The notes under the pieces are model-generated. The model did no database searches, was not told the DNA's origin, and saw only the letters and a list, made by a program, of their open reading frames with translations. Below, in pieces: positions 2,766 to 42,068 of a stretch of DNA of 42,462 nt. Every line of letters begins with the position of its first letter. Within the stretch, counting starts at the first letter, position 1. The DNA is from Escherichia phage 26, in sequence record NC_073320.1. The stretch is one strand, 5' to 3'. The translations under genes were made by a program, and so were the position numbers.

Positions 2766-2794
2766 ACTATAATAGCTAACTATTCAGGTGTCAA
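2766..2794 (-). promoter_or_regulatory. sigma70-type promoter P3 (TTGACA-17-TATAGT) with AATAG-N4-CTATT dyad in the spacer
   Basis: minus-strand reading TTGACAcctgAATAGttagCTATTATAGT just upstream of SSB-like and polymerase genes. Confidence 0.5.
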
Positions 2795-5577: not shown

Positions 5578-5607
5578 ACTATAATAGCGAACTATTCATT
5601 ATGTCAA
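5578..5607 (-). promoter_or_regulatory. sigma70-type promoter P2 (TTGACA-18-TATAGT) with AATAG-N4-CTATT dyad; divergent from XRE gene
   Basis: minus-strand reading TTGACAtaatgAATAGttcgCTATTATAGTTAGCC; same block as P1 and P3. Confidence 0.5.
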
Positions 5608-6097: not shown

Positions 6098-8334
6098 TCC
6101 AAATCCTCCTCTGTCACGGTCAGCATCTCATTCGGTTCGTATATTGTCTTTGGCCTTAATCTGTCACCCATCTTTTCCGGTATCCGGTATGTGCCGGGTA
6201 TAACTTCACCGTTAACATCGCACCCTAACATCAACTCACCGTCTTTCAGCATCTTCTCGAGATGATGGTTGGTGATGGCGTGGTCGCCAGAATTCGCCAC
6301 TATCTGCCGTTGTGTGAAGCCTCGTCCGGTGTCGTCTGACTGTTGCAGGTCTTCCAGCGCTGCAAGTATTGATTCCTTACGCCCTTCATCCTCTCCACGT
6401 TTTACAGCGTTCTTTACGTTTTCTTTACCTTCCTTTGTCAGCCCTTCTTCTCGTTCTTTCTCCTCGTCAGTCTTGAACGGCTCGAAGCCCCACGGCATCA
6501 GTACAAGCGCCTTGTGCGGCTCAGGCAGGTCCAGGTTTACGATTATGCCGTACTCCTCTGTGCTACCCAGGAACTCAACCGCGCGGTATTCTTTCGGCGG
6601 CTGGGCTTCACGGAACTGTACCGACTCAAGCACCATGCCAACCGTTTTCTGTTGGGGCCCGTGCTTAAATTTCGAGTGGTATACGTTTATCTGACGGTCG
6701 GTTGCACGCTCGATTGTCAGTTCCACGTCGACACCTGCATACAGTGCCCCGCTGCCGCGGGCTTTCTTTCCACCCTTCGGTGTATGGTGGACAACGCCTA
6801 CCGCGGCTTTAGTTGCGTCGCGTACTTCTTTCAGAATGGCGATAACTTTACCCATACCGATTGCCGTCGATGAGCTGTTCTCGTCGAACTTATCAATTGT
6901 CAGTGCCAGTGTCTGGTTGAGGGTGTCAAACGCAATCATGCCGATTGGCTCGTCGCCAGCGGTTTCACGCATTATCTTAATCAGGCTTTTCAGTTTTCCG
7001 ACTTCACCCATGTCGATGACGTGTACATAATCTTTACCCTCAACGCCGTATTTAGCCGCGAGTGCATCAATACGTGTACGTGTGGCTGCGCCACCTTCAC
7101 CGTCGATATAGAAGTGGTGGCAACGCTGGGTGTCCGCCCCTGCGAAGCGATAGCCGGCGGCGCTAAGGTACATCATCCCCAGCGTATAAAACGATTTGTA
7201 CGTGCCGGATTCCCCGACGATATCCCAGATACAATCCGACGGCATGTACCCCTCAACGACGAAATCGGCCTTTACCGGTTCCGGTAGCTCGTCCTCCCCT
7301 GAGTCATCCTCGTCTTCCAGGTCGTCGAGGCTGCATGAAACTGACTCACGCGTACCCCAACCGATGGCCTCCGCCACTTCACTGAACGGCAGCCCGGTAG
7401 CATCGCACGCGTATTTCCACACTTCTTTCGGTGACATGCCTTCGGTAGCCGTGATGTCGGTGTCGTGAATCATGGTTACGTTCGGCGCTTCGTACCCTTC
7501 GCGTGGGAAGCACAGCAGGAAGTCGTCTGGGCGCGGCGTCGGGTCGCTGTATTTTCCTGCATGTTCTGGCGTAGCGGGCATTTTCAGTCCGCGTGGTGTC
7601 ATGACGCCGCCGTACTCAAACGCCAGTGCTTCAAACGCGTCAGTAAACGCGGTGCGCAGTTCTTCCGGTATCTGGTAATCCGATGCGCTGCTAACATCAA
7701 CGGCCGGGATGCCTTCCAGTAACTCTTCTTGGTCAATCAGGTCGTTGCGGCGCGACCAGATAACCTGAGAGCCAACTGGTGGCAGGTACATCGGTTGTGA
7801 AAGAGTGAAACCGCTGCGGTCCGCACCCATGCCTTTGAAGAAGTGCTCCAGCAATCCATGACGAACACGGATGATGTCGCCACCTTCGACCGGACGACCC
7901 AATGGCATGACGACACGAAAGCGCGGGGACTCGTCGGTATGTGATGCCGTGGTATATAGACACATCGCCAGGCGGCTGCGCTTAACCAGGCGCACAGCTT
8001 CCTGATACTCTTCCGGTGTTGCGCTGTCGAAGTCCAGATACGCCAGCGACGATTTGCTTACAGATGCATCGCAGCGATAGAAGAACCCTTTACGCGCTTG
8101 CTTAAAGTCACCGGTTTCCGGGTCTTTTACGGTGCTGTGCGTAGCGTCGCACGCGGCAGTGATATAGCCCGGTGCTGTCTTAGGGTTAACCCCATCACGA
8201 ACGGCATCGAGCGGCTGGATCAACTCTTTCAGGTCGTCCAGCGTTGCCGTGTGTGTGGTTCTGACGTTTATATCCTTTTTCTCCGCACGCGCGTTGCGAC
8301 GTGACCACGAGTAGGATAGAATTACATCGGACAT
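6094..8334 (-). CDS. replicative primase-helicase (N-terminal primase-like domain plus RecA/DnaB-like ATPase)
   Basis: 746 aa; Walker A GESGTYKS in C-terminal half; C-terminus ..VTEEDLE. Confidence 0.7.
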   Translation of the reverse strand: MSDVILSYSWSRRNARAEKKDINVRTTHTATLDDLKELIQPLDAVRDGVNPKTAPGYITAACDATHSTVKDPETGDFKQARKGFFYRCDASVSKSSLAYLDFDSATPEEYQEAVRLVKRSRLAMCLYTTASHTDESPRFRVVMPLGRPVEGGDIIRVRHGLLEHFFKGMGADRSGFTLSQPMYLPPVGSQVIWSRRNDLIDQEELLEGIPAVDVSSASDYQIPEELRTAFTDAFEALAFEYGGVMTPRGLKMPATPEHAGKYSDPTPRPDDFLLCFPREGYEAPNVTMIHDTDITATEGMSPKEVWKYACDATGLPFSEVAEAIGWGTRESVSCSLDDLEDEDDSGEDELPEPVKADFVVEGYMPSDCIWDIVGESGTYKSFYTLGMMYLSAAGYRFAGADTQRCHHFYIDGEGGAATRTRIDALAAKYGVEGKDYVHVIDMGEVGKLKSLIKIMRETAGDEPIGMIAFDTLNQTLALTIDKFDENSSSTAIGMGKVIAILKEVRDATKAAVGVVHHTPKGGKKARGSGALYAGVDVELTIERATDRQINVYHSKFKHGPQQKTVGMVLESVQFREAQPPKEYRAVEFLGSTEEYGIIVNLDLPEPHKALVLMPWGFEPFKTDEEKEREEGLTKEGKENVKNAVKRGEDEGRKESILAALEDLQQSDDTGRGFTQRQIVANSGDHAITNHHLEKMLKDGELMLGCDVNGEVIPGTYRIPEKMGDRLRPKTIYEPNEMLTVTEEDLE

Positions 8335-8392
8335 GTTATATTTCCTTCAGCAAGTAATTTGGCCTCGGCGTTCACCGCGTCGGGGCTTTCTT

Positions 8393-8626
8393 TTATTCCA
8401 GGTCTTCTAAAGTAGCTGTCATTCCGCGAACTTCAGCAACAGCACTATATTTCCCACAAACATTTTTCACGACACCGGATTTAACCAACACCTTCAGCGA
8501 CCCTTCAATGATGGCGGAACTATAATACTTAAAATAACTACGTCGCAAGTCGATAACGCTGCACGACCCTTTTTTACGTGTTAATGAAACGACTGCCGTA
8601 AATACGCGTGACTGGAACTCGGTCAT
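8393..8626 (-). CDS. hypothetical protein, 77 aa, C-terminal ..TLEDLE tail
   Basis: ORF upstream of primase-helicase; shares C-terminal EDLE motif with primase-helicase and nuclease. Confidence 0.5.
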   Translation of the reverse strand: MTEFQSRVFTAVVSLTRKKGSCSVIDLRRSYFKYYSSAIIEGSLKVLVKSGVVKNVCGKYSAVAEVRGMTATLEDLE

Positions 8627-8793
8627 TTTACATTCTCCTTAATCCACGATTCCACTTTCTCCGGGTCAAACGTACCTGGCTGGCGGCGGCCCATAATGCG
8701 AATACAACAATCGGGGAACTTCCCACTCTTTAACCAGTTATTCAGTGTGCGGCGAGTAACCCCGATACGCTCGGCTACTTCATTCTGCGTCAT
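8623..8793 (-). CDS. small HTH DNA-binding protein, AlpA/excisionase-like, 56 aa
   Basis: below track cutoff; MTQNEVAERIGVTRRTLNNWLKSGKFP; ATGA overlap with downstream gene; first gene of leftward arm. Confidence 0.55.
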   Translation of the reverse strand: MTQNEVAERIGVTRRTLNNWLKSGKFPDCCIRIMGRRQPGTFDPEKVESWIKENVK

Positions 8794-9262
8794 TCTAAAA
8801 CCCTCATTATCAGTTAACGAAACAGAGTATACATTGCGAATAATGGGAAATCAAACATAATCGCACCTATTGACATTATGAAAATATTCGTTTAAGGTGC
8901 TTCTATATCTTAGTTACTTTGATTCTTGTTCACCTTGTAAGAATGCTTAACCCGTGCGTTAAGCAAAGGGTTAAGCAGCAGGCTTACTGAACACGAGAAT
9001 TATTGTAACTTTCCTTCCTAAGTATCTCCGGTTGCCCTGGGCAAGCTATATTCTCATCGGCAGCATATCTCTTAAGTATCTGATTTTCTTAATGTGCCGT
9101 AGATTCGCAACCGTAAAAATGTAACGATTATTGGGCAGGCTTAAGGCCTGCCCTTTAGTTACCAAGTAATAAGAATAAAGGCACAACCCCTGCATGAAGA
9201 ATCACAACGGCAACGTAACTATCCTCTTGCACACCCCAACATAATAGGATACTATTCACTTA
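8794..9262. other. 469-bp non-coding region between divergent early arms; candidate origin/regulatory hub
   Basis: no ORF over 16 codons on either strand; GTTAAGC x3 (8945-8976), TAAGTATCT x2 (9019-9027, 9073-9081), hairpin GGGCAGGC-TTAAG-GCCTGCCC (9133-9153), dyad copy at 9243. Confidence 0.3.
9243..9256. promoter_or_regulatory. AATAG-N4-CTATT dyad copy upstream of first rightward gene
   Basis: flanks (ccaaCATAATAGGATACTATTCA) match the reverse complement of the 23-bp element at 19486 and 29732. Confidence 0.4.
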
Positions 9263-9289
9263 TTGAAACGAGACAGAGGAGTGAGGGTT

Positions 9290-9478
9290 ATGTTTAAGAA
9301 GGGTCAGTTGGTTAAAATTAAAGAGACCAAAGAACTCTCGGTCATATTCGCGTCCCACAAAGAAAATAGATATTATTTTGCCGCATCTTTAACAGTATCG
9401 TATCTCACCGTTTTATACGCACAGGATATGGAACTCATCGGCAACAATTTTAAATTCAAAGGGCGAAGTGATGTTTAA
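9290..9478 (+). CDS. hypothetical protein, 62 aa
   Basis: ATG after RBS GGAGTGAGGG (track ORF starts at upstream TTG 9263). Confidence 0.5.
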   Translation: MFKKGQLVKIKETKELSVIFASHKENRYYFAASLTVSYLTVLYAQDMELIGNNFKFKGRSDV

Positions 9479-9701
9479 TCATATAATTAAATACGACTAT
9501 CACGATGGGGTTAAACTCGCCAAACATGAGATAGAAACATGGTGCGGCTGTAAGCCTGAATTTAGCGATTGGTTGTTCCAGGATGCACAGCACGCCATGT
9601 TAGTTATGGAGCAGGAAGGGAGAATTGTGCCGTGCAAAAGTTGCCTGAAAAATATAATCAAAACGGCATCGAATCGTGATGCTCGTGCCGACGACTCTTA
9701 G
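9471..9701 (+). CDS. hypothetical Cys-containing protein, 76 aa
   Basis: ORF overlapping upstream stop; CGC..CKSC. Confidence 0.5.
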   Translation: MFNHIIKYDYHDGVKLAKHEIETWCGCKPEFSDWLFQDAQHAMLVMEQEGRIVPCKSCLKNIIKTASNRDARADDS

Positions 9702-9715
9702 GGAGGTTGCCGTTA

Positions 9716-9973
9716 ATGAATAACACTGAACTGAAAACAGTAGCGGAATATAACCGTAAAATACGGGTTATGCGTCGTGGTGCGGGGCTGGAGCAGTTCT
9801 ATAACATGTGGCGCATTGCGACGCGCGACCCTGAGTTTCTTCAGACAGGTTATTATTCCATTAAAGGCATTATACCGATTCGTGCACGTAAGGATTATGG
9901 TTGGGTTCGTGAGACCCCTAATCTTTTGTGGTGCTGGTATTGTGGTGAATTCTGGGTAAGGGTTAAGGACTAA
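9716..9973 (+). CDS. hypothetical protein, 85 aa
   Basis: ATG after RBS GGGAGG; C-terminal CWYCGEFW. Confidence 0.5.
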   Translation: MNNTELKTVAEYNRKIRVMRRGAGLEQFYNMWRIATRDPEFLQTGYYSIKGIIPIRARKDYGWVRETPNLLWCWYCGEFWVRVKD

Positions 9974-9976
9974 GTT

Positions 9977-10120
9977 ATGAGAGAAGCATTCGAACGGTGG
10001 GCTGTCGTCGAGGGTCTGCCGGTTAACAAGGGTTCAAAGAAAGAGTACCTGAACGTTAAGACGCGTCTCGCGTGGCGGGCGTGGAAAGCTGGTGTGCAAG
10101 CTGTGATGAATACGAGGTGA
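9977..10120 (+). CDS. hypothetical protein, 47 aa
   Basis: below track cutoff; tightly packed between neighbours. Confidence 0.35.
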   Translation: MREAFERWAVVEGLPVNKGSKKEYLNVKTRLAWRAWKAGVQAVMNTR

Positions 10121-10123
10121 TTT

Positions 10124-10321
10124 ATGGGTGAGTGGATTAAGTGTAGTGAGCGGATGCCGGGTGATTTTGAAGATGTGCTGGTTACTGATGGGGATAACGT
10201 TGAGGTGATGTGGCGGCATCGCAGTGGTTTATGGGACTATTGGGCCCCGCGTAACCCGAATATCTCTAGTAACGATGTAACCCATTGGATGCCGTTGCCT
10301 GAGCCACCATCGTTGGTATAA
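10124..10321 (+). CDS. DUF551-like phage protein
   Basis: C-terminal VTHWMPLPEPP motif (family recalled from memory). Confidence 0.5.
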   Translation: MGEWIKCSERMPGDFEDVLVTDGDNVEVMWRHRSGLWDYWAPRNPNISSNDVTHWMPLPEPPSLV

Positions 10322-10339
10322 CAGGTGGTGTAACAGGTC

Positions 10340-10353
10340 AATAGGTTACTATT
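10340..10353. promoter_or_regulatory. AATAG-N4-CTATT dyad copy immediately before a terminator
   Basis: caATAGgttaCTATTtgg; no -35/-10 context, so looks like a binding site rather than a promoter. Confidence 0.35.
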
Positions 10354-10367
10354 TGGCTTTGTGACTT

Positions 10368-10400
10368 ACGCTGCTACACAGCAGCGTATCATTTTTCTCA
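10368..10400 (+). terminator. rho-independent terminator
   Basis: ACGCTGCT-ACAC-AGCAGCGT hairpin then ATCATTTTTCTCATTTTT. Confidence 0.55.
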
Positions 10401-10458
10401 TTTTTGTTCTATTTCACCAAACGCAACAATCGAAGCGACTATTGCAGGAGATGCAACA

Positions 10459-10635
10459 ATGAAAACGTTCACAGAGAAACTTATGTGGCTCGTTGCAAAG
10501 CGAGATTCGGCAACCCGAAGCTACCGTAAATGTGCCAACTGCGGCAGCGAGCAGGTGCAGTTAATCCAGTACCTGGGCGACTCGGTTACGCATAAGTGCA
10601 GAAAGTGCCATCACGTGAATACACAACACCAATAA
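10459..10635 (+). CDS. small zinc-ribbon protein, 58 aa
   Basis: below track cutoff; RBS GCAGGAG; CANCGS..CRKCHH (two CxxC pairs). Confidence 0.45.
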   Translation: MKTFTEKLMWLVAKRDSATRSYRKCANCGSEQVQLIQYLGDSVTHKCRKCHHVNTQHQ

Positions 10636-10642
10636 AATTTAC

Positions 10643-10672
10643 TTGCACACTAAGATAGAATAGGCTACTATT
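10643..10672 (+). promoter_or_regulatory. promoter-like element (TTGCAC-17-TACTAT) with AATAG-N4-CTATT dyad in the spacer
   Basis: TTGCACactaagatagAATAGgctaCTATTcat, 30 nt upstream of the 10703 ORF. Confidence 0.4.
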
Positions 10673-10702
10673 CATTTACACAAACGAGAGGAGAGACAGA
10701 AG

Positions 10703-10816
10703 ATGTACAGCGAATTTGATTTGTGGGATGTGGTTCTTATGTGGGCCTCCGGGGAAGATGTTGTTTGCGACGGCGACACATTAAGTATCGTATGCGAGGA
10801 GCCAGAAGATGAGTAA
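10703..10816 (+). CDS. hypothetical acidic peptide, 37 aa
   Basis: strong RBS GAGAGGAGAG; overlaps start of next gene. Confidence 0.3.
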   Translation: MYSEFDLWDVVLMWASGEDVVCDGDTLSIVCEEPEDE

Positions 10817-11447
10817 CAAAAACGAAGTATTCGAGTACCTGATTGACCAGCTACGGCGGCAGGTAAATAAGAAAGATGTCACGTCTTTCAATGTGTCTGT
10901 GCGGATATCCGACCTTGATGAGGTCAAGCAGGTAATCCACAACCTACAGCAGCATATCGCTGGTAAGGACGACGAAATACGTGCGCTGAAAGACAGTTTA
11001 CGGCAGAAGCTACCAGTCGTAGATGTAATGGGTGAAATTAAACGGTGGTGCATAGACCGTAGTATTGCCGGACGGGGTAACTATACCGACGAGGAAAACG
11101 CCATAATCGATGCTTACATCGGCTTGGAGCACAACCCGTACAAGCAACAGTGCGAAGACCTGGCGCACGAGGTGCAGTCACTTAAGAATAAGTTACGAGA
11201 TATGTCGGATCTGGTGGATGAGCTACTGGGGACAATAACGTTAATGAACGGGGAATACGGTTGCCGTAAGGGAAATGCCCGCGAGTGCCACCATAACTGG
11301 CGATTCGTTAATGGTAAAGCTCCCGCGGTATGTATTAATTGCGGGGTGGCTAAATCCAGCGAGTGCGAACATGAGTGGTGTGTCGAAACCTTTTACGGAA
11401 CCCGAGTATCTCCGACGTACTGCCGTAAATGTGGAGCGACCAAATGA
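10809..11447 (+). CDS. hypothetical protein, coiled-coil N-half and Cys/His-rich C-half
   Basis: 212-aa ORF; C-terminal CINCG..CEHEWC..CRKCG. Confidence 0.6.
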   Translation: MSNKNEVFEYLIDQLRRQVNKKDVTSFNVSVRISDLDEVKQVIHNLQQHIAGKDDEIRALKDSLRQKLPVVDVMGEIKRWCIDRSIAGRGNYTDEENAIIDAYIGLEHNPYKQQCEDLAHEVQSLKNKLRDMSDLVDELLGTITLMNGEYGCRKGNARECHHNWRFVNGKAPAVCINCGVAKSSECEHEWCVETFYGTRVSPTYCRKCGATK

Positions 11448-11647
11448 CCAGCATCTTATTTATCTGGGTATTGTCCGCAGGCCAGATGCAACTAGCGGCA
11501 TCAGAAACGTTTTATTCGATGGAGGCGTGCCAGTCAGCGGCACGCGCCGCAGAGAACGCGCACTTCCTGTTTCAGGGGGACAAGCACAACGATTCAGAGG
11601 TACGCGCTATCTGCTCACCTAAGCGACTTGGTAAACAGGAGAAGTGA
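11444..11647 (+). CDS. hypothetical small protein with N-terminal signal-like hydrophobic segment
   Basis: MTSILFIWVLSAGQMQLAA..; ATGA overlap with upstream stop. Confidence 0.45.
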   Translation: MTSILFIWVLSAGQMQLAASETFYSMEACQSAARAAENAHFLFQGDKHNDSEVRAICSPKRLGKQEK

Positions 11648-11649
11648 TT

Positions 11650-11883
11650 ATGGCACTCCAGGAAGAATACACCGTTGTAAAATTCACCACATCACCAGGC
11701 CGCGTTTATGCATTCCCTACTAGCGATTATAGTGACGGAATAATATGTGAGATTGTTGATGGTAAACCTTGCTGCACAACCTGGATGCGTTTCGAACTTC
11801 TTCGCGCAATCAAATATTCGCGTGCAAAAGTAGTAGGAAAGGCTAGCATCGAATTAACTGTTGAGTACGTACAGGAGAAGTGA
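11650..11883 (+). CDS. hypothetical protein, ~77 aa
   Basis: ATG after AGGAGAAG RBS; same 16-nt initiation region repeated at 11866. Confidence 0.5.
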   Translation: MALQEEYTVVKFTTSPGRVYAFPTSDYSDGIICEIVDGKPCCTTWMRFELLRAIKYSRAKVVGKASIELTVEYVQEK

Positions 11884-11885
11884 TT

Positions 11886-12176
11886 ATGGTACAGAGATAC
11901 GAAACATACGGGTACGACTGGGAACTGGAAGTTTACAAATGTGACGCGGGTAATCTTGTAAGTTACGAAGACTACGTGAAACTCGAAGCCGAGTTACAGA
12001 AATACAAAGACCAGTTCCCGGATTACGTCGAGTGCGCGAACTGTGGGTCAATTACACATGTGGAAGGGGCCGAAGACGCTATGGGGCAATCCGGTTGCCA
12101 AATAGGTGAGCATGATTGGGTGCTAGATGCCGACGAGGATTATTTTGTGTGTCGCAGTTGTGGGGAGACGACATGA
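11886..12176 (+). CDS. hypothetical Cys-rich (zinc-ribbon-like) protein, ~96 aa
   Basis: CANCGS and CRSCG pairs. Confidence 0.5.
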   Translation: MVQRYETYGYDWELEVYKCDAGNLVSYEDYVKLEAELQKYKDQFPDYVECANCGSITHVEGAEDAMGQSGCQIGEHDWVLDADEDYFVCRSCGETT

Positions 12177-12466
12177 GACTCGCAACTGACATCCTGAAAC
12201 GAAGCGGCCTTGCGCCGCTGTCACCGAGAGCTAAAACACAGATATACAAGCGCCGCGGCAACGCGCTGTACCCTGAGATTCAGGCCCGGCGCAAAGCTGT
12301 CCGCGCCTGTGGATTCCAGAACGGGAAGGCCGTGAATCTCGGTGAGTTCAAAACGCAGGAACGCGCAGCAATCGCTAACCGGTTATTTAATTACTGGAAA
12401 TCGCTGGGGTACGATGATATTCCGACGAAACCACAGAGACGACAATACATCTGGAGACACAAATAA
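12173..12466 (+). CDS. hypothetical basic protein, 97 aa
   Basis: start ATG 12173 overlaps upstream stop. Confidence 0.5.
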   Translation: MRLATDILKRSGLAPLSPRAKTQIYKRRGNALYPEIQARRKAVRACGFQNGKAVNLGEFKTQERAAIANRLFNYWKSLGYDDIPTKPQRRQYIWRHK

Positions 12467-12497
12467 ACCGTTATTAAGATAATTCCTAAGCGTGGTA

Positions 12498-12535
12498 TCC
12501 TCCAGTTACTGCATACTTAATACGCACCTGGAGGA
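12498..12535 (+). promoter_or_regulatory. stem-loop sequestering the holin Shine-Dalgarno
   Basis: TCCTCCAG-N22-CTGGAGGA; the 3' arm contains the GGAGGA RBS 7 nt before the TTG start. Confidence 0.35.
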
Positions 12536-12541
12536 TTCATC

Positions 12542-12850
12542 TTGGATAAATTTACTGAAACAGTGACAGGCTGGCTTCTCGCTGCAGCACTCGCTGGAGG
12601 GGTAATCGGACTACAACAACATAAGTACGTTATTTCTGGCCCCATCGACGGCTTCTGCTTTATTGCAACTGGCTTCACTTGCGCCGTATTTGGTGCGCCT
12701 CTTGCCGCTCAATGGTTCGGTATCACGGGCGACCGTGAAATCGCTGGTCTGGGCTTCATCATCGCCATTCTCTGGATGCCTATCTATTCCCGCCTTTCCG
12801 GTATCGTAGCCGGAGAATACATCGCACGTCGAGGAGGCCCAGATGAATGA
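12542..12850 (+). CDS. holin (three predicted TM segments)
   Basis: 102-aa membrane protein, TTG start after GGAGGA, directly upstream of endolysin. Confidence 0.55.
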   Translation: MDKFTETVTGWLLAAALAGGVIGLQQHKYVISGPIDGFCFIATGFTCAVFGAPLAAQWFGITGDREIAGLGFIIAILWMPIYSRLSGIVAGEYIARRGGPDE

Positions 12851-13115
12851 GTTATTCTGGTTCGGCGGTATGCTGGCAATAGGCGGCACATCGCTGTTTA
12901 ACGTGTATCACCCCAGCGTGGACGACGGGATATTTGGCCGGGTGCTCTATATCCTGACCACTATTGTCTGCGCCGCCGGATGTATCCACCTGTTACAGGG
13001 CAGCATGTCACCTACGTTGCCTGAGACGTTAATCACATTAGTTGCGCTGCGCCAGATTCGCCAGGCGTGGCTGTCATACGGAGGGTATAAGCGTGTCTCG
13101 AAATATTTCAGATAA
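12843..13115 (+). CDS. small membrane protein (second holin/antiholin-like)
   Basis: 90 aa, two hydrophobic segments; overlaps holin end and endolysin start. Confidence 0.45.
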   Translation: MNELFWFGGMLAIGGTSLFNVYHPSVDDGIFGRVLYILTTIVCAAGCIHLLQGSMSPTLPETLITLVALRQIRQAWLSYGGYKRVSKYFR

Positions 13116-13599
13116 TGGCTTGCAGTTCAAGAAAGCGTGGGAAAAATTTCGCGGAACTGCTTACAAAGCAACAAAGAACGAAAAATACTGGACCATCGGC
13201 TGGGGCCATACCGGGCCGGATGTGTATGAAGGGCAGAAGATTACCGAGGGCCAGGGGTTACTGTTGCTGAACCGCGATATGCAGTGGGCGGTGAAAGCAG
13301 TCGATGAAGTCGCGCACCCATCGCTGACACAGGCACAGTTTGATGCCGTTGTTGACCTGGTGTTTAACGCGGGGACTGGGGTTATCTCGGCGACTACCGG
13401 AACCGGTAAGGCGCTGCGTAGCGGAGACATCCACACCTTACGGCATAAGTTGAGTCAGTTCATCAACCAACGCAACCCGAAAACAGGTAAACTCGAGCCT
13501 GTGCTTGGCCTACGTCGCCGTACTGCGGGACGACTGGCGCTGTTCGACGGTAAACCGTGGCAAGAGGCTGAGGCTATCGGGAGAGCGGTGAAAGGTTGA
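13093..13599 (+). CDS. endolysin, lysozyme (glycoside hydrolase family 24-like)
   Basis: GLQFKKAWEKFRGTAYKATKNEKYWTIGWGHTG signature; GTG start after GGAGGG (track ORF starts upstream at 13042). Confidence 0.85.
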   Translation: MSRNISDNGLQFKKAWEKFRGTAYKATKNEKYWTIGWGHTGPDVYEGQKITEGQGLLLLNRDMQWAVKAVDEVAHPSLTQAQFDAVVDLVFNAGTGVISATTGTGKALRSGDIHTLRHKLSQFINQRNPKTGKLEPVLGLRRRTAGRLALFDGKPWQEAEAIGRAVKG

Positions 13600-13664
13600 C
13601 ACCTAAGACTAATCCGACGATACTTAAATCACCTCCTGTTCCATCCCTCTACTCTCCAGTTTTA

Positions 13665-13695
13665 TCCCGGCCCTGACCCAGCCGGGATTTTTTTT
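13665..13695 (+). terminator. rho-independent terminator after lysis cassette
   Basis: TCCCGGC-N9-GCCGGGA followed by T8. Confidence 0.7.
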
Positions 13696-13717
13696 ATCTA
13701 TTCCCTGCAATGACTAG

Positions 13718-13746
13718 TTGACTATTATCTTCGACCATATTATATT
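13718..13746 (+). promoter_or_regulatory. sigma70-type promoter (TTGACT-17-TATATT) with degenerate dyad ACTAG-N4-CTATT
   Basis: good -35/-10 match 34 nt upstream of the 13780 ORF. Confidence 0.5.
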
Positions 13747-14028: not shown

Positions 14029-14219
14029 AAGTTAAAGCAACTAAAGTTACCTGGTTACGCGCCTTGGAATATGTGACAGAGGGTAAAGTGTATGATGTGT
14101 ACAACCCAACAACCAGTGGTCTAGGTTATGTTATAGCCGATGACGGCTGTGATATTTTCATAGATTTTAGTGACGAAGGTGATGGTTTCCACGGTGTTAA
14201 ATGGGAGATTGTAGAATGA
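14025..14219 (+). CDS. hypothetical protein, 64 aa
   Basis: ATGA overlap with upstream gene. Confidence 0.5.
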   Translation: MKVKATKVTWLRALEYVTEGKVYDVYNPTTSGLGYVIADDGCDIFIDFSDEGDGFHGVKWEIVE

Positions 14220-14374
14220 GCGAACAAGGTCCAGCAAGCCAACCATTACGCGTAGGCCGTAAAGTCAGTCACACCCCGTTCCCCACACGCGAGGAACTGA
14301 TGAAACGTAACAGTTTCCCGGGGCCGGACAAGAACAAGTATCTTAATCGCATGTGGGGAGAGCGTAAAGAATGA
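14216..14374 (+). CDS. hypothetical protein, 52 aa
   Basis: below track cutoff; ATGA overlaps at both ends. Confidence 0.4.
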   Translation: MSEQGPASQPLRVGRKVSHTPFPTREELMKRNSFPGPDKNKYLNRMWGERKE

Positions 14375-14600: not shown

Positions 14601-14900
14601 ATGAGTAGTAGCACATTAGATAAAATTGAAAAAATGCAGGTCATCCTGCGAAATATGAAATCAGACATTAAGCGGCAGGACAGGTTGAATTCAATAAACA
14701 GAATGGAACTAACTACGAAGCAAGCGCAGAAGCGCAATGCTGACGCAGCATGGATAGCAATGGAACAGATTAAGCGCCGCCATGAATTGCATGCCCTGTC
14801 TGTTGAGTTGGGATTTGCTGAACGAAGGGATGATTATAGCGCAATAGAGTTAACTGACGGATGGCATTGCTTTACCTACAAACCAAGAGAGCCAGATTGA
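14601..14900 (+). CDS. hypothetical protein, 99 aa
   Basis: ORF in operon context. Confidence 0.5.
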   Translation: MSSSTLDKIEKMQVILRNMKSDIKRQDRLNSINRMELTTKQAQKRNADAAWIAMEQIKRRHELHALSVELGFAERRDDYSAIELTDGWHCFTYKPREPD

Positions 14901-15169
14901 GCCACAAGAAATTTGCAATTAGCCGTGAGCACGCCGCCTGTGCGGTAGACGATATACGAGAAACGGCGCGGCTTGGTGATGAGATAGCGGGGGTAAGTAT
15001 GTTCAGTGACATTAACGCAGCAATCGAAGAAGCAATCTGGCGTCGCTACAACGGCGAGCAACAGCGACATTTCTGCCTGGTGCAACGCGGTAACATGATT
15101 GCCGTGGTGCAGGACCGCGATAACAAATACCCGAATGTGATGTGGACAACGAGGAATTTCTTAGGATGA
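14897..15169 (+). CDS. hypothetical protein, ~90 aa (start uncertain)
   Basis: possible TTG start overlapping upstream stop; internal ATG at 14999 is an alternative. Confidence 0.4.
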   Translation: MSHKKFAISREHAACAVDDIRETARLGDEIAGVSMFSDINAAIEEAIWRRYNGEQQRHFCLVQRGNMIAVVQDRDNKYPNVMWTTRNFLG

Positions 15170-15402
15170 TTACCAGCATTCCTAACCTGATTAAAGAATT
15201 TGGCACGATGGCCGAGACATGCCGACAAACCGGCATCAACGAAATGACGATTGCCAAGTACAGCAAAGACGTTAACTGCGAGCGCCACGTAATTTATAAC
15301 AACCGTCTGATGACGCACGTTAAGACAAGCCCGGTGTTATTCACGCGCCGGGGTATCACTAAAACAGAGCAGCGCATTGCTAAAGAGGAGAGCGGGGAAT
15401 GA
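15166..15402 (+). CDS. hypothetical protein with HTH-like segment, 78 aa
   Basis: ATGA overlap; AETCRQTGINEMTIAKYSKD. Confidence 0.45.
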   Translation: MITSIPNLIKEFGTMAETCRQTGINEMTIAKYSKDVNCERHVIYNNRLMTHVKTSPVLFTRRGITKTEQRIAKEESGE

Positions 15403-19485: not shown

Positions 19486-19508
19486 TGAATAGTACCCTAT
19501 TATATTGG
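19486..19508. promoter_or_regulatory. 23-bp promoter-like element TGAATAGTACCCTATTATATTGG, copy 1
   Basis: identical 23-mer at 29732-29754; contains the dyad; reverse complement gives a perfect TATAAT positioned before the DnaN-like gene. Confidence 0.5.
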
Positions 19509-29731: not shown

Positions 29732-29754
29732 TGAATAGTACCCTATTATATTGG
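29732..29754. promoter_or_regulatory. 23-bp promoter-like element TGAATAGTACCCTATTATATTGG, copy 2
   Basis: identical to 19486-19508; reverse complement supplies TATAAT about 40 nt upstream of the Imm-like gene start. Confidence 0.5.
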
Positions 29755-41780: not shown

Positions 41781-42068
41781 CTAACTATAATAGTTCGCTA
41801 TTAGGTCGTCAACCTGTTTAAACGAACCGACGACAAAAACATTCGCACCACGTTTCCGGAATCTCTCATGTTCCCGTAGCTGGTGCGGGTCTGGCTTCGT
41901 GTTTTCGTCTTTCTTTATCTCAACGAACCAGATGATGCCGCCGGGGAGAATTACCAGGAGGTCCATGGCGGCTCGCCGACCTTCAAATGCCATCTTGCGA
42001 ACGAGGCCACCAATGGCCTCGAATCGGTATTTTGCGTATTTCTGGATTCGCCCTTCAGGCGTACTCAT
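41781..42068 (-). CDS. VRR-NUC domain nuclease
   Basis: DLLVILPGGIIWFVEIKKDENTKPDPHQLREHERF; start ATG 42068 (track ORF begins at 42077). Confidence 0.65.
   Translation of the reverse strand: MSTPEGRIQKYAKYRFEAIGGLVRKMAFEGRRAAMDLLVILPGGIIWFVEIKKDENTKPDPHQLREHERFRKRGANVFVVGSFKQVDDLIANYYS
41784..41812 (-). promoter_or_regulatory. sigma70-type promoter P1 (TTGACG-17-TATAGT) with dyad, embedded in the 3' coding end of the VRR-NUC gene
   Basis: minus-strand TTGACGacctAATAGcgaaCTATTATAGT-TAG; the TAG is the VRR-NUC stop. Confidence 0.45.

What the first reader, a model, noticed from the sequence alone, without database searches (positions are those of the whole stretch)
9290..12466. Rightward early cluster of about 12 small proteins, several with zinc-ribbon Cys pairs
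Densely packed ORFs of 37-212 aa with frequent ATGA overlaps and multiple CxxC pairs (10459, 10809, 11886 ORFs), a DUF551-like protein and a signal-peptide-bearing small protein. Two adjacent genes share an identical 16-nt initiation region (CAGGAGAAGTGATTATGG at 11634 and 11870). This is the typical location of host-takeover and anti-defence genes; none can be assigned a function from sequence alone.
Basis: inference. Interest (0 to 1): 0.4.

Follow-up and report, generated by a model that had tools for sequence, protein, structure and literature searches.

The report
Shuffled accessory-gene region of a Kagunavirus phage
This is the ordinary but real accessory-gene arm of a Kagunavirus-type E. 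coli phage: twelve small genes of mostly unknown function, sitting in slots between conserved promoter and terminator islands and swapped between related phages.

Summary
There are 12 Shine-Dalgarno-preceded small genes (37-212 aa) on the + strand. The DUF551 protein, the CxxC proteins and the repeated start region are all present; the repeat is really 19 nt, at 11635-11653 and 11871-11889.

The window is a Kagunavirus-like (Guernseyvirinae) siphophage. The "cluster" is three units framed by non-coding islands that are 92-100% conserved in 42 relatives:
- P1 -> g1-g5 -> terminator.
- A leader slot holding g6.
- P2 -> g7-g12, which runs without a terminator into the holin-holin-endolysin genes.

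Gene content between the islands is shuffled. The repeated start region is the duplicated g9/g11 junction left by insertion of g10. That cassette is absent from all 42 relatives and is related to genes of T1-like phages and of phage Bas100.

Protein leads:
- g5 is DUF551.
- g12 has an AP2-like DNA-binding fold (weak support).
- g8 is a hyper-modular coiled-coil protein with C-x-H-x-W...CxxC zinc modules.
- g11 is a chimera carrying one g8-type module.
- g9 is a conserved, probably exported peptide.

No known anti-defence or defence family matched, and "early" timing is unproven. Verdict: ordinary phage accessory region, with useful regulatory and mosaicism detail.

The parts
9226..9256 (+). 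Promoter P1: TTGCAC (9227-9232), 17-nt spacer, TACTAT (9250-9255). The 14-bp palindrome AATAGGATACTATT (9243-9256) overlaps the -10 element.
   Evidence: 48-nt repeat with P2. Palindrome census. The island is 92-100% conserved in relatives.
9290..9478 (+). g1, 62 aa, unknown function (phrog_12538).
   Evidence: Homologues at 34-81% identity in 30 of 42 relatives.
9471..9701 (+). g2, 76 aa, rare cassette (phrog_4090); contains CGC...CxxC.
   Evidence: E=3e-38. Found in 2 of 42 relatives.
9716..9973 (+). g3, 85 aa, cassette with no family match.
   Evidence: Found in 10 of 42 relatives.
9977..10120 (+). g4, 47 aa, conserved backbone gene (phrog_15836). Public precomputed hit to PF26207 Phage_phiTE_015.
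   Evidence: Found in 38 of 42 relatives. Precomputed Pfam hit.
10124..10321 (+). g5, 65 aa, DUF551 domain protein.
   Evidence: PF04448 E=4.1e-14, above the gathering score. Found in 33 of 42 relatives.
10367..10400 (+). Intrinsic terminator ending the P1 unit: 9-bp stem TACGCUGCU/AGCAGCGUA followed by a U-rich tail.
   Evidence: Fold -15.8 kcal/mol, z=-3.5. The stem is invariant in all aligned relatives and the loop changes in L032.
10404..10462 (+). Conserved leader with SD and mini-ORF ATG-CAA-CAA-TGA (10451-10462). This is the cassette insertion slot.
   Evidence: The slot is empty (mini-ORF MQQYKHQ*) in many relatives. At least 5 unrelated cassettes start at the same ATG.
10459..10635 (+). 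g6, 58 aa, CxxC-x18-CxxC zinc-ribbon-like cassette (phrog_1474).
   Evidence: Found in 1 of 42 relatives.
10642..10672 (+). Promoter P2: TTGCAC (10643-10648), 17-nt spacer, TACTAT (10666-10671). Palindrome AATAGGCTACTATT at 10659-10672.
10703..10816 (+). g7, 37 aa acidic peptide (phrog_29113), rare cassette.
   Evidence: Found in 1 of 42 relatives, Bas73.
10809..11447 (+). g8, 212 aa. Invariant N-terminus, coiled coil, and two C-terminal C-x-H-x-W...CxxC zinc modules (160-178 and 186-208).
   Evidence: 1085 homologue clusters. Modular alignment. 29 architectures among 120 homologues. AF2 model with pLDDT 62.
11444..11647 (+). g9, 67 aa, conserved small protein with a hydrophobic N-terminus (probable signal peptide or membrane anchor) and 2 Cys in the mature part.
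   Evidence: phrog_3766. Found in 40 of 42 relatives. 50 clusters, all Guernseyvirinae.
11635..11653 (+). Left copy of the 19-nt direct repeat: last codons and stop of g9, plus SD and start of g10.
11650..11883 (+). g10, 77 aa, inserted cassette.
   Evidence: Absent from 42 relatives. Present in 23 contigs of the sister lineage. 73.6% identical to the C-terminal domain of Bas100_0085 and 35-38% identical to T1-like phage proteins.
11871..11889 (+). Right copy of the 19-nt direct repeat: last codons and stop of g10, plus SD and start of g11.
11886..12176 (+). g11, 96 aa chimera. Residues 1-63 belong to the MVQRY family (phrog_29624). The C-terminal 33 aa (DNA 12070-12178) carry a g8-type zinc module.
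12173..12466 (+). g12, 97 aa basic protein with an AP2-like beta-hairpin-plus-helix core (residues about 41-80); conserved backbone gene.
12499..12534 (+). Hairpin CCUCCAG/CUGGAGG that sequesters the holin SD, upstream of the TTG start at 12542. There is no terminator here, so P2 transcripts should continue into the lysis genes.
   Evidence: -17.3 kcal/mol, z=-2.3. The island is conserved in 43 of 43 sequences.

Best explanation
The interval is the rightward accessory-gene arm of a virulent Kagunavirus-like (Guernseyvirinae) siphophage. It lies between the leftward replication genes and the lysis cassette.

Shown:
- It holds 12 real protein genes arranged in slots between short non-coding islands that are almost invariant across relatives.
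- Promoter P1 precedes g1-g5, which end at an intrinsic terminator.
- A conserved leader carrying a tiny ORF holds one cassette, g6.
- Promoter P2 precedes g7-g12, with no terminator before holin-holin-endolysin.
- Gene content between the islands differs from phage to phage.
- New genes sit exactly at gene junctions, flanked by direct repeats of the Shine-Dalgarno/start region. The 'identical initiation region' is such a repeat around the imported gene g10.
- g11 has additionally acquired a zinc module of the g8 type.

Inferred:
- Homologous recombination in the conserved islands, together with microhomology-mediated joins at SD/start junctions, shuffles the cassettes while keeping every gene translatable.
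- Both promoters carry a 14-bp palindrome, AATAG-N4-CTATT, which is also present in the promoters of the replication genes. It is probably the operator of one phage regulator, so the region would be co-regulated with replication functions.
- The conserved members (g4, g5 DUF551, g9 exported peptide, g12 AP2-like DNA binder) probably serve the phage's own programme.
- The variable cassettes (g2, g3, g6, g7, g10) and the variable g8/g11 zinc-module proteins are probably dispensable fitness factors that bind host or phage macromolecules.
For: Identity and gene reality:
- Gene reality rests on SD sites, PHROG families, matching public gene calls on a 99.65%-identical contig, and cross-family homologues of g10.

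Conserved islands versus variable slots:
- The four islands are found in 42-43 of 43 sequences, mostly at 92-100% identity.
- Window genes g2, g3, g6, g7 and g10 occur in 2, 10, 1, 1 and 0 of 42 relatives.
- Slot lengths range over 666-1557, 22-535, 305-1294 and 317-1210 nt.

Promoters and terminators:
-.
- The palindrome occurs 8 times perfectly against about 1.2 expected, always intergenic.

Insertion scars:
- 19-nt repeat around g10.
- About 45-nt repeat around a different cassette at the same junction in L041.
- 18-nt repeat around the L040 leader cassette.
- Five unrelated leader cassettes share the same start and the same terminal codons.

g11 chimera:
- The 109-nt segment 12070-12178 is replaced by 13 nt in the sister contig.
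- 63 nt of it are 89% identical to the 3' end of a g8 allele.

Protein leads.
Against: - No transcript, protein or phenotype data exist for this phage.
- P1 and P2 match the sigma-70 consensus at only 7 of 12 positions and were not called by the promoter scan, so they may need an activator.
- The operator reading is untested and no regulator is assigned to it.
- Direct repeats at junctions could also arise by mechanisms I cannot distinguish here, such as template switching, unequal crossover or a site-specific process.
- The functions of 10 of the 12 proteins remain unknown.
Confidence: 0.65

Rival explanations
1. Anti-defence / host-takeover island: the small proteins are made immediately after injection, and they inhibit host defence systems or redirect host machinery.
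For: - The region lies next to the divergent promoter area, opposite the replication genes.
- Cassette content varies strongly between relatives.
- The g8 family is extremely diverse, with 1085 clusters against 41-50 for its neighbours. This is the pattern expected under an arms race.
Against: - No match to any named anti-defence family. Lar scored 13.7 bits against a cutoff of 28.6, and NCBIfam and PADLOC gave nothing.
- BASEL Kagunavirus isolates with homologous regions are reported as highly RM-sensitive and variably Old-sensitive (PMC11990801).
- g7-g12 appear to be co-transcribed with the lysis genes.
- No dedicated anti-defence HMM library was available, so the test is incomplete.
Confidence: 0.2
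2. Phage-internal regulatory and lysis-timing module: the P2 unit (g7-g12) works with the lysis cassette. g9 would act in the envelope, and g12 would be a DNA-binding regulator of late or lysis transcription.
For: - There is no terminator between g12 and the holin. The next strong terminator is at 13664-13695.
- g9 and g12 are the most conserved members: 40 and 42 of 42 relatives, and g9 is shared with Salmonella Jerseyviruses.
- g12 has an AP2-like fold.
- The holin SD is sequestered in a conserved hairpin.
Against: - This does not explain the variable cassettes.
- No binding site has been linked to g12.
- The spanins lie elsewhere in relatives.
- All of it is inference from position.
Confidence: 0.1
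3. A dedicated, site-specific gene-capture system (integron-like) inserts cassettes at fixed junctions and creates the direct repeats.
For: - Three independent cassettes are flanked by 18-45-nt direct repeats of the target junction.
- Two fixed insertion points are reused by unrelated cassettes.
Against: - No integrase or recombinase was seen in the locus or in the annotated genome of relative Bas73.
- Repeat lengths and sequences differ between sites.
- No attC-like structure was noted.
- Selection for retained SD and start signals, combined with ordinary recombination, explains the pattern.
Confidence: 0.04
4. Several of the ORFs are chance reading frames or non-coding DNA.
For: - The ORF 10361-10462 is annotated as a CDS in Bas73 and K-01.
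- It spans the terminator and loses its frame through a 10-11-nt indel in variant relatives.
Against: All 12 listed genes have SD sites, and each has either a PHROG family or homologues in other phages.
Confidence: 0.02

Closest known systems
Accessory ('moron' / nin / ea-type) regions of lambdoid and other siphophages, with mosaic joints at gene boundaries (Hendrix-type mosaicism; named from my own knowledge)
   Same: Dense small genes of unknown function. Presence or absence varies between close relatives. Novel joints fall exactly at gene borders. The region includes DUF551, and NinH-like and DUF2737 genes lie nearby.
   Different: This is a virulent phage. The slots are framed by near-invariant promoter, terminator and leader islands. 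Several insertions keep direct repeats of the SD/start junction.
Annotated Kagunavirus genomes (Bas70-76, K1G-like, phiWAO78-1, vB_Eco_K-01, NTEC3)
   Same: Same position and backbone: g1-like, g4, DUF551, leader, g8-like, g9, MVQRY family and g12, then the holins.
   Different: Only 45-58% of 9200-12600 aligns, at about 90% identity. The window carries g2, g3, g6, g7 and g10, which are rare or absent in relatives, plus a chimeric g11. It lacks the HslV-like peptidase gene. A metagenomic sister lineage is 99.65% identical over 8601-12069.
Lambda / Stx-phage Ea22 proteins (PMC10834534)
   Same: g8 resembles them in architecture: a shared N-terminal segment, a central coiled coil and swapped C-terminal domains ('mosaic organisation'). 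One Ea22 variant carries DUF551, the domain that g5 carries here.
   Different: No sequence match of g8 to the Ead_Ea22 family among the best 25 Pfam hits listed at E<=1. The g8 C-termini are tandem zinc modules. The function of g8 is untested.
AP2/ERF-type DNA-binding domains of phage HNH homing endonucleases and stand-alone phage AP2 proteins
   Different: No Pfam AP2 hit at E<=1. There is no nuclease domain. The scores are weak. The family is confined to Guernseyvirinae-type contigs.
Small phage / prophage zinc-ribbon proteins (Lar PF14354, ECs_2282 family NF047912, generic Zn_ribbon families)
   Same: Paired CxxC knuckles in 50-100-aa proteins encoded among phage accessory genes.
   Different: All matches fall below the curated cut-offs. 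The g8/g11 modules use a C-x-H-x-W...CxxC (CHCC) pattern that matched no library model.

Membership tests
DUF551 (PF04448) | Match to the Pfam model above the gathering score. | tested here: met
   g5: 53.6 bits against 22, E=4.1e-14, covering profile positions 1-67 of 68.
AP2/ERF DNA-binding domain | Sequence match to the Pfam AP2 model. | tested here: not met
   No Pfam family at E<=1 for g12. No PDB sequence match.
AP2/ERF DNA-binding domain | Beta-sheet packed on a C-terminal helix (AP2 fold). | tested here: inconclusive
Zinc ribbon | Two zinc knuckles (CxxC or CxH) on beta-hairpins. | tested here: inconclusive
   The motifs are present in g6, g8 and g11. The g8 model shows beta-hairpins at 164-175 and 190-205. 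All Pfam and NCBIfam zinc-ribbon matches are below their cut-offs.
Zinc ribbon | Bound zinc. | not testable with these tools
   Requires metal analysis of purified protein.
Sec signal peptide (g9) | Positive n-region, hydrophobic h-region, small residues at -3 and -1. | tested here: inconclusive
   An h-region (ILFIWVLSAG) and AAS|E are present. The n-region (MTS) has no K or R. Some relatives have an upstream in-frame start giving MR.... No predictor was available.
Known anti-restriction / anti-defence proteins | Homology to a named family (for example Lar). | tested here: not met
   Lar_restr_allev scored 13.7 bits against a cutoff of 28.6. There were no named hits in PHROGs, NCBIfam or PDB. 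A dedicated anti-defence library was not available.
Anti-phage defence system components (PADLOC) | Match to any PADLOC model. | tested here: not met
   0 families for 10 proteins at E<=0.01.
Sigma-70 promoter | -35 and -10 hexamers with a 16-18-nt spacer and good consensus match. | tested here: inconclusive
   P1 and P2 read TTGCAC-17-TACTAT, which is 7 of 12 and below the scan threshold. The 31-48-nt element recurs 4 times in the genome in front of operons and is conserved in relatives.
Intrinsic terminator | GC-rich hairpin followed by a U tract. | tested here: met
   10367-10388 has 9 bp with 5 GC pairs, then UCAUUUUUCUCAUUUUUG. Fold -15.8 kcal/mol, z=-3.5.
Integron-like cassette system | Integrase plus attC/attI recombination sites. 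| tested here: not met
   No recombinase among the locus proteins or in the annotated relative genome. The flanking repeats differ between sites.

The most novel reading that the evidence does not exclude
The g8 family would be a hypervariable specificity factor, for example one that counters or evades strain-specific host immunity or excludes competing phages. It has an invariant N-terminus, a coiled coil and 0-3 interchangeable C-x-H-x-W...CxxC zinc modules. On this reading, its modules are a mobile currency that can be grafted onto neighbouring genes, as in the window's g11. The conserved-island and junction-repeat architecture would then be an evolved scaffold for rapid cassette turnover.
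Probability: 0.12. Interest if true: 0.6.

Novelty: new member of a known kind. Interest (0 to 1): 0.28.

Why it matters
Kagunaviruses are common, small (about 43 kb) E. coli phages being adopted for synthetic biology and therapy, and a quarter of their genes are unnamed.

This analysis provides four practical things:
- A map of which parts of the accessory arm are a fixed regulatory scaffold: two promoters with a shared palindrome, a terminator, a leader slot and the holin SD hairpin.
- A list of the interchangeable parts, which indicates where genes can probably be deleted or inserted safely.
- An explanation of the duplicated start region as an insertion scar.
- Three testable leads: g12 as a DNA binder, g8 as a hyper-modular zinc protein, and the palindrome as a global operator.

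It does not reveal a new kind of system.

Tried and rejected
Searches that gave nothing usable:
- Pfam, PHROGs, NCBIfam and PADLOC scans of all 12 proteins gave only DUF551 and unnamed PHROGs.
- PDB sequence searches for g8 and g12 found nothing.
- The fold search of the g8 model returned only coiled-coil noise, with no hit at E<=0.001.
- The exhaustive representative search for g10 found 5 weak relatives and no link to a known family.
- Rfam on 8300-13700 gave no credible RNA family.

Literature that did not resolve the question:
- The K1B4 time-course paper and its supplements do not say which accessory genes are early.
- The genome-reduction paper (CiPGr) turned out to concern a Skatevirus, not a relative.
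- A search for promoter literature on Jersey-type phages found nothing relevant.

Ideas considered and rejected:
- ORF 10361-10462 as a gene. It is rejected because its frame is broken by a 10-11-nt indel in variants and it spans the terminator.
- A third promoter at 10340. It is rejected because it has no -35 element and is degenerate in about half of the relatives.
- g12 being the 'HslV family peptidase' annotated in relatives. That is a separate 146-aa gene, absent from this window.
- The repeat as convergent RBS optimisation. It is rejected because of 19/19 identity including the codons and stop of the upstream genes, and a single copy in relatives lacking g10.

Full report
**What the window is.** Megablast of 9200-12600 hits 339 phage records, led by Kagunavirus isolates (NRG857CP3, phiWAO78-1, Bas70, Bas73). 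No record covers more than 58% of the query, at about 90% identity. The first 25 kb behaves the same way, with at most 74% covered at about 90% identity. Annotated relatives place the interval between the leftward helicase-primase/HTH genes and the rightward holin-holin-endolysin cassette. The window is therefore a complete or near-complete genome of a Kagunavirus-like (Guernseyvirinae) virulent siphophage. The finding is its rightward accessory arm.

**Checking the observation.** Twelve + strand genes fill 9290-12466 (coordinates are in the parts list). Each is preceded by a GGAG/GAGG-type Shine-Dalgarno. Spacing is tight:
- ATGA overlaps at g8/g9 and g11/g12.
- 8-nt overlaps at g1/g2 and g7/g8.
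- Gaps of 2-14 nt elsewhere within each unit.

A public metagenomic contig 99.65% identical over 8601-12069 carries independent gene calls of 60, 76, 85, 47, 65, 58, 37, 212, 67, 77, 63 and 97 aa. This is the same series apart from g1 and g11.

The individual claims check out as follows:
- DUF551 is confirmed for g5 (E=4.1e-14, above the gathering score).
- CxxC pairs are present in g6, g8 and g11.
- The repeat is real and exact, but it is 19 nt (ACAGGAGAAGTGATTATGG) at 11635-11653 and 11871-11889. None was expected by chance.
- g9 has a hydrophobic N-terminus and an AAS|E site but no basic n-region. 'Signal peptide' is plausible and untested.

**The cluster is three units on a conserved scaffold.** I fetched 40 IMG/VR loci around holin homologues and added two GenBank relatives. 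Four non-coding islands are present in 42-43 of 43 sequences, mostly at 92-100% identity:
- 9197-9295
- 10322-10462
- 10636-10705
- 12467-12545

The window's genes are much less constant. g2, g3, g6, g7 and g10 occur in 2, 10, 1, 1 and 0 of 42 relatives. g4, g5, g9 and g12 occur in 38, 33, 40 and 42. Distances between the islands vary widely: 666-1557, 22-535, 305-1294 and 317-1210 nt. A family map of all loci shows a backbone interrupted by dozens of alternative small genes.

**The islands read as regulatory elements.**
- 9226-9273 and 10642-10689 are a 48-nt repeat. Both contain TTGCAC, a 17-nt spacer and TACTAT.
- 10367-10388 is a 9-bp hairpin followed by a U-rich tract (-15.8 kcal/mol, z=-3.5). 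Its stem is invariant in relatives, while the loop (in L032) and the downstream tract vary.
- No terminator lies between g12 and the holin. The next strong one is at 13664-13688 plus U8.

The likely units are therefore P1 -> g1-g5 -> terminator, then a leader with g6, then P2 -> g7-g12 -> holin, holin, endolysin.

P1 and P2 match the sigma-70 consensus at only 7 of 12 positions and were not called by the scan. Their function is inferred from conservation, position and recurrence.

**A shared palindrome.** The 14-bp palindrome AATAG-N4-CTATT occurs 8 times perfectly, plus 3 times with one mismatch. About 1.2 occurrences are expected by chance, and every perfect copy is intergenic.
- Four copies overlap the -10 of TTGCAC-type elements: P1, P2, and - strand sites at about 19.5 kb and 29.7 kb in front of leftward operons.
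- Three fill the spacer of near-consensus TTGACA/TTGACG...TATAGT promoters of the leftward replication genes, at about 2.8, 5.6 and 41.8 kb.
- The half-sites are invariant and the central four bases vary, as expected for the operator of a dimeric regulator.

This is inference. If it is right, the accessory arm is co-regulated with the replication genes. That is the best available argument for pre-late expression. Direct evidence is lacking: the K1B4 transcriptome classifies only 4 genes as early and names only the HTH gene (PMC12645636).

**What the repeated start region is.** In relatives, g9 is followed directly by an MVQRY-family gene across a single junction, TTGGTAAACAGGAGAA(G/A)T(G/A)A(TT/C)ATGGTACAG. 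In the window that junction is present twice, and the 236 bp between the copies is exactly g10. Both g9 and g10 end in QEK-stop.

g10 is absent from all 42 relatives but present in 23 contigs of the window's own sublineage. Its other relatives are outside the group:
- 73.6% identity to the C-terminal domain of a 221-aa protein of the 68-kb phage Bas100.
- 35-38% identity to small proteins of T1-like phages such as Tls gp84 and DanielBernoulli.
- Only 5 weak relatives in the 1.84-billion-protein representative library.

The same pattern recurs independently:
- L041 carries a different 101-aa gene at the same junction, flanked by a direct repeat of about 45 nt.
- In the leader slot, at least five unrelated cassettes begin at the same ATG (GCAACAATG) and end in frame in the same last codons (ACACCAATAA).
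- The empty site is a 7-codon mini-ORF, MQQYKHQ*.
- The L040 cassette is flanked by an 18-nt repeat of the leader.

I conclude that the repeat is an insertion scar. Cassette turnover proceeds by recombination in the conserved islands and by short-homology joins at SD/start junctions, with selection keeping both genes translatable. The mechanism is inferred; the pattern is shown.

**g11 is a chimera.** Relatives encode 58-93-aa MVQRY proteins ending ...ECANCGSVTHVEGVE*, often followed by a paralogue. The window's g11 continues for 33 further residues...AEDAMGQSGCQIGEHDWVLDADEDYFVCRSCGETT. The corresponding DNA (12070-12178) is replaced by 13 nt in the 99.65%-identical sister contig. Of that DNA, 63 nt are 89% identical to the 3' end of a g8 allele in another sister contig.

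**Protein leads.**
- **g8.** It has 1085 homologue clusters at E<=0.001, against 41 for g12 and 50 for g9.
  - The alignment shows an invariant N-terminus (MSNKNEVFEYLIDQLRQQ), two optional helical modules and a conserved coiled-coil core (QCEDLAHEVQSLKNQLRD).
  - It carries 0-3 C-terminal modules of the form C-x-H-x-W-(n)-CxxC.
  - There are 29 architectures and 125 distinct module sequences among the best 120 homologues.
  - The AF2 model is helical up to about residue 150, followed by beta-hairpins (pLDDT 62, pTM 0.27).
  - Foldseek against PDB found nothing meaningful.
  - The architecture recalls the mosaic Ea22 proteins of lambda and Stx phages (PMC10834534), but there is no sequence match.
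- **g12.** It is a basic 97-aa protein confined to this phage group.
  - Its modelled core 41-80 is a beta-hairpin plus helix with pLDDT 77-87.
  - BFVD hits are mostly phage AP2 and HNH-AP2 proteins at E 1e-2 to 1e-1 with probability about 1.0.
  - This is coherent but weak, and Pfam AP2 does not match.
- **g9.** It is 69-97% conserved across Kagunavirus and Salmonella Jerseyvirus.
- **Others.** g1, g2, g4, g6 and g7 match only unnamed PHROGs, and g3 and g10 match none. NCBIfam and PADLOC gave nothing usable.

The location and the variability fit 'accessory / host-interaction genes'. Anti-defence function is not supported by any homology. BASEL Kagunavirus isolates with homologous arms are reported as highly RM-sensitive and variably Old-sensitive (PMC11990801). 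This argues against broad anti-restriction, though not against narrower activities. 'Early' remains unproven, and half of the cluster is probably on the same transcript as the lysis genes.

**Verdict.** This is a real but ordinary phage accessory region, and a new member of a known kind. The added value is:
- the regulatory scaffold;
- the explanation of the repeat;
- the chimeric g11;
- the hyper-modular g8 family;
- the AP2-like g12;
- the candidate global operator.

I score interest at about 0.28.

Noticed in passing
window 2771-2784, 5583-5596, 9243-9256, 10340-10353, 10659-10672, 19488-19501, 29734-29747, 41789-41802: A perfect 14-bp palindrome, AATAG-N4-CTATT, occurs 8 times against about 1.2 expected by chance, and always intergenic. 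It overlaps the -10 of four TTGCAC-type elements and fills the spacer of three near-consensus leftward replication promoters. It is probably the operator of one phage regulator.
   Followed up: partly
window 12499-12544: A conserved hairpin, CCUCCAG-N22-CUGGAGG (-17.3 kcal/mol, z=-2.3), sequesters the Shine-Dalgarno of the first holin gene, which starts with TTG at 12542. This may be translational control of lysis timing.
   Followed up: partly
window 14601-14900; also 15142-15402 and 14201-14374: In the second small-gene cluster after the endolysin, the 99-aa protein corresponds to sister-contig products that carry a precomputed PF26859 Phage_N_antitermin hit. The local Pfam copy found nothing. 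Neighbouring genes match NinH (E=1.8e-4, below cutoff) and DUF2737 (E=9.5e-10).
   Followed up: partly
window 10361-10462: This ORF is annotated as a CDS in GenBank relatives (Bas73_0061, K-01 CDS0025) but is probably not a gene. It spans the terminator hairpin, and a 10-11-nt indel breaks its frame in variant relatives, while the flanking RNA elements stay conserved.
   Followed up: yes
window 8794-9190, especially 9133-9153: The divergent intergenic region contains a very stable hairpin, GGGCAGGCUUAAGGCCUGCCC (-21.9 kcal/mol, z=-5.4), with a short U tract on the + strand. A promoter-like site lies at 8834-8861. The region aligns in only 15 related loci (16 sequences counting the window itself). 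It may be a small RNA or a terminator; Rfam found nothing.
   Followed up: partly
between window 12466 and 12542 (absent); L003 40115-40555: Many relatives carry a 146-aa gene annotated 'HslV family peptidase' between g12 and the holin. Its Pfam Proteasome match is only E=0.019. The window and its sister contigs lack this gene.
   Followed up: partly
window 10319-10338: Tandem TAACAGGTG-type units begin at the g5 stop codon. Relatives L037 and L039 have an expanded array with three or more copies of GGTGTAACA. The role is unknown; it may be a protein-binding site upstream of the terminator.
   Followed up: no
L044 1054-1719 (phage Bas100) against window 11650-11883: g10 is a stand-alone copy of what forms the C-terminal domain of a 221-aa hypothetical protein in the unrelated 68-kb phage Bas100. 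That protein has no Pfam family.
   Followed up: partly
window 13664-13727: A strong terminator (8-bp stem plus U8) follows the endolysin gene. A TTGACT-17-TATATT promoter-like site with a degenerate half-palindrome comes immediately after it, ahead of the second small-gene cluster.
   Followed up: no
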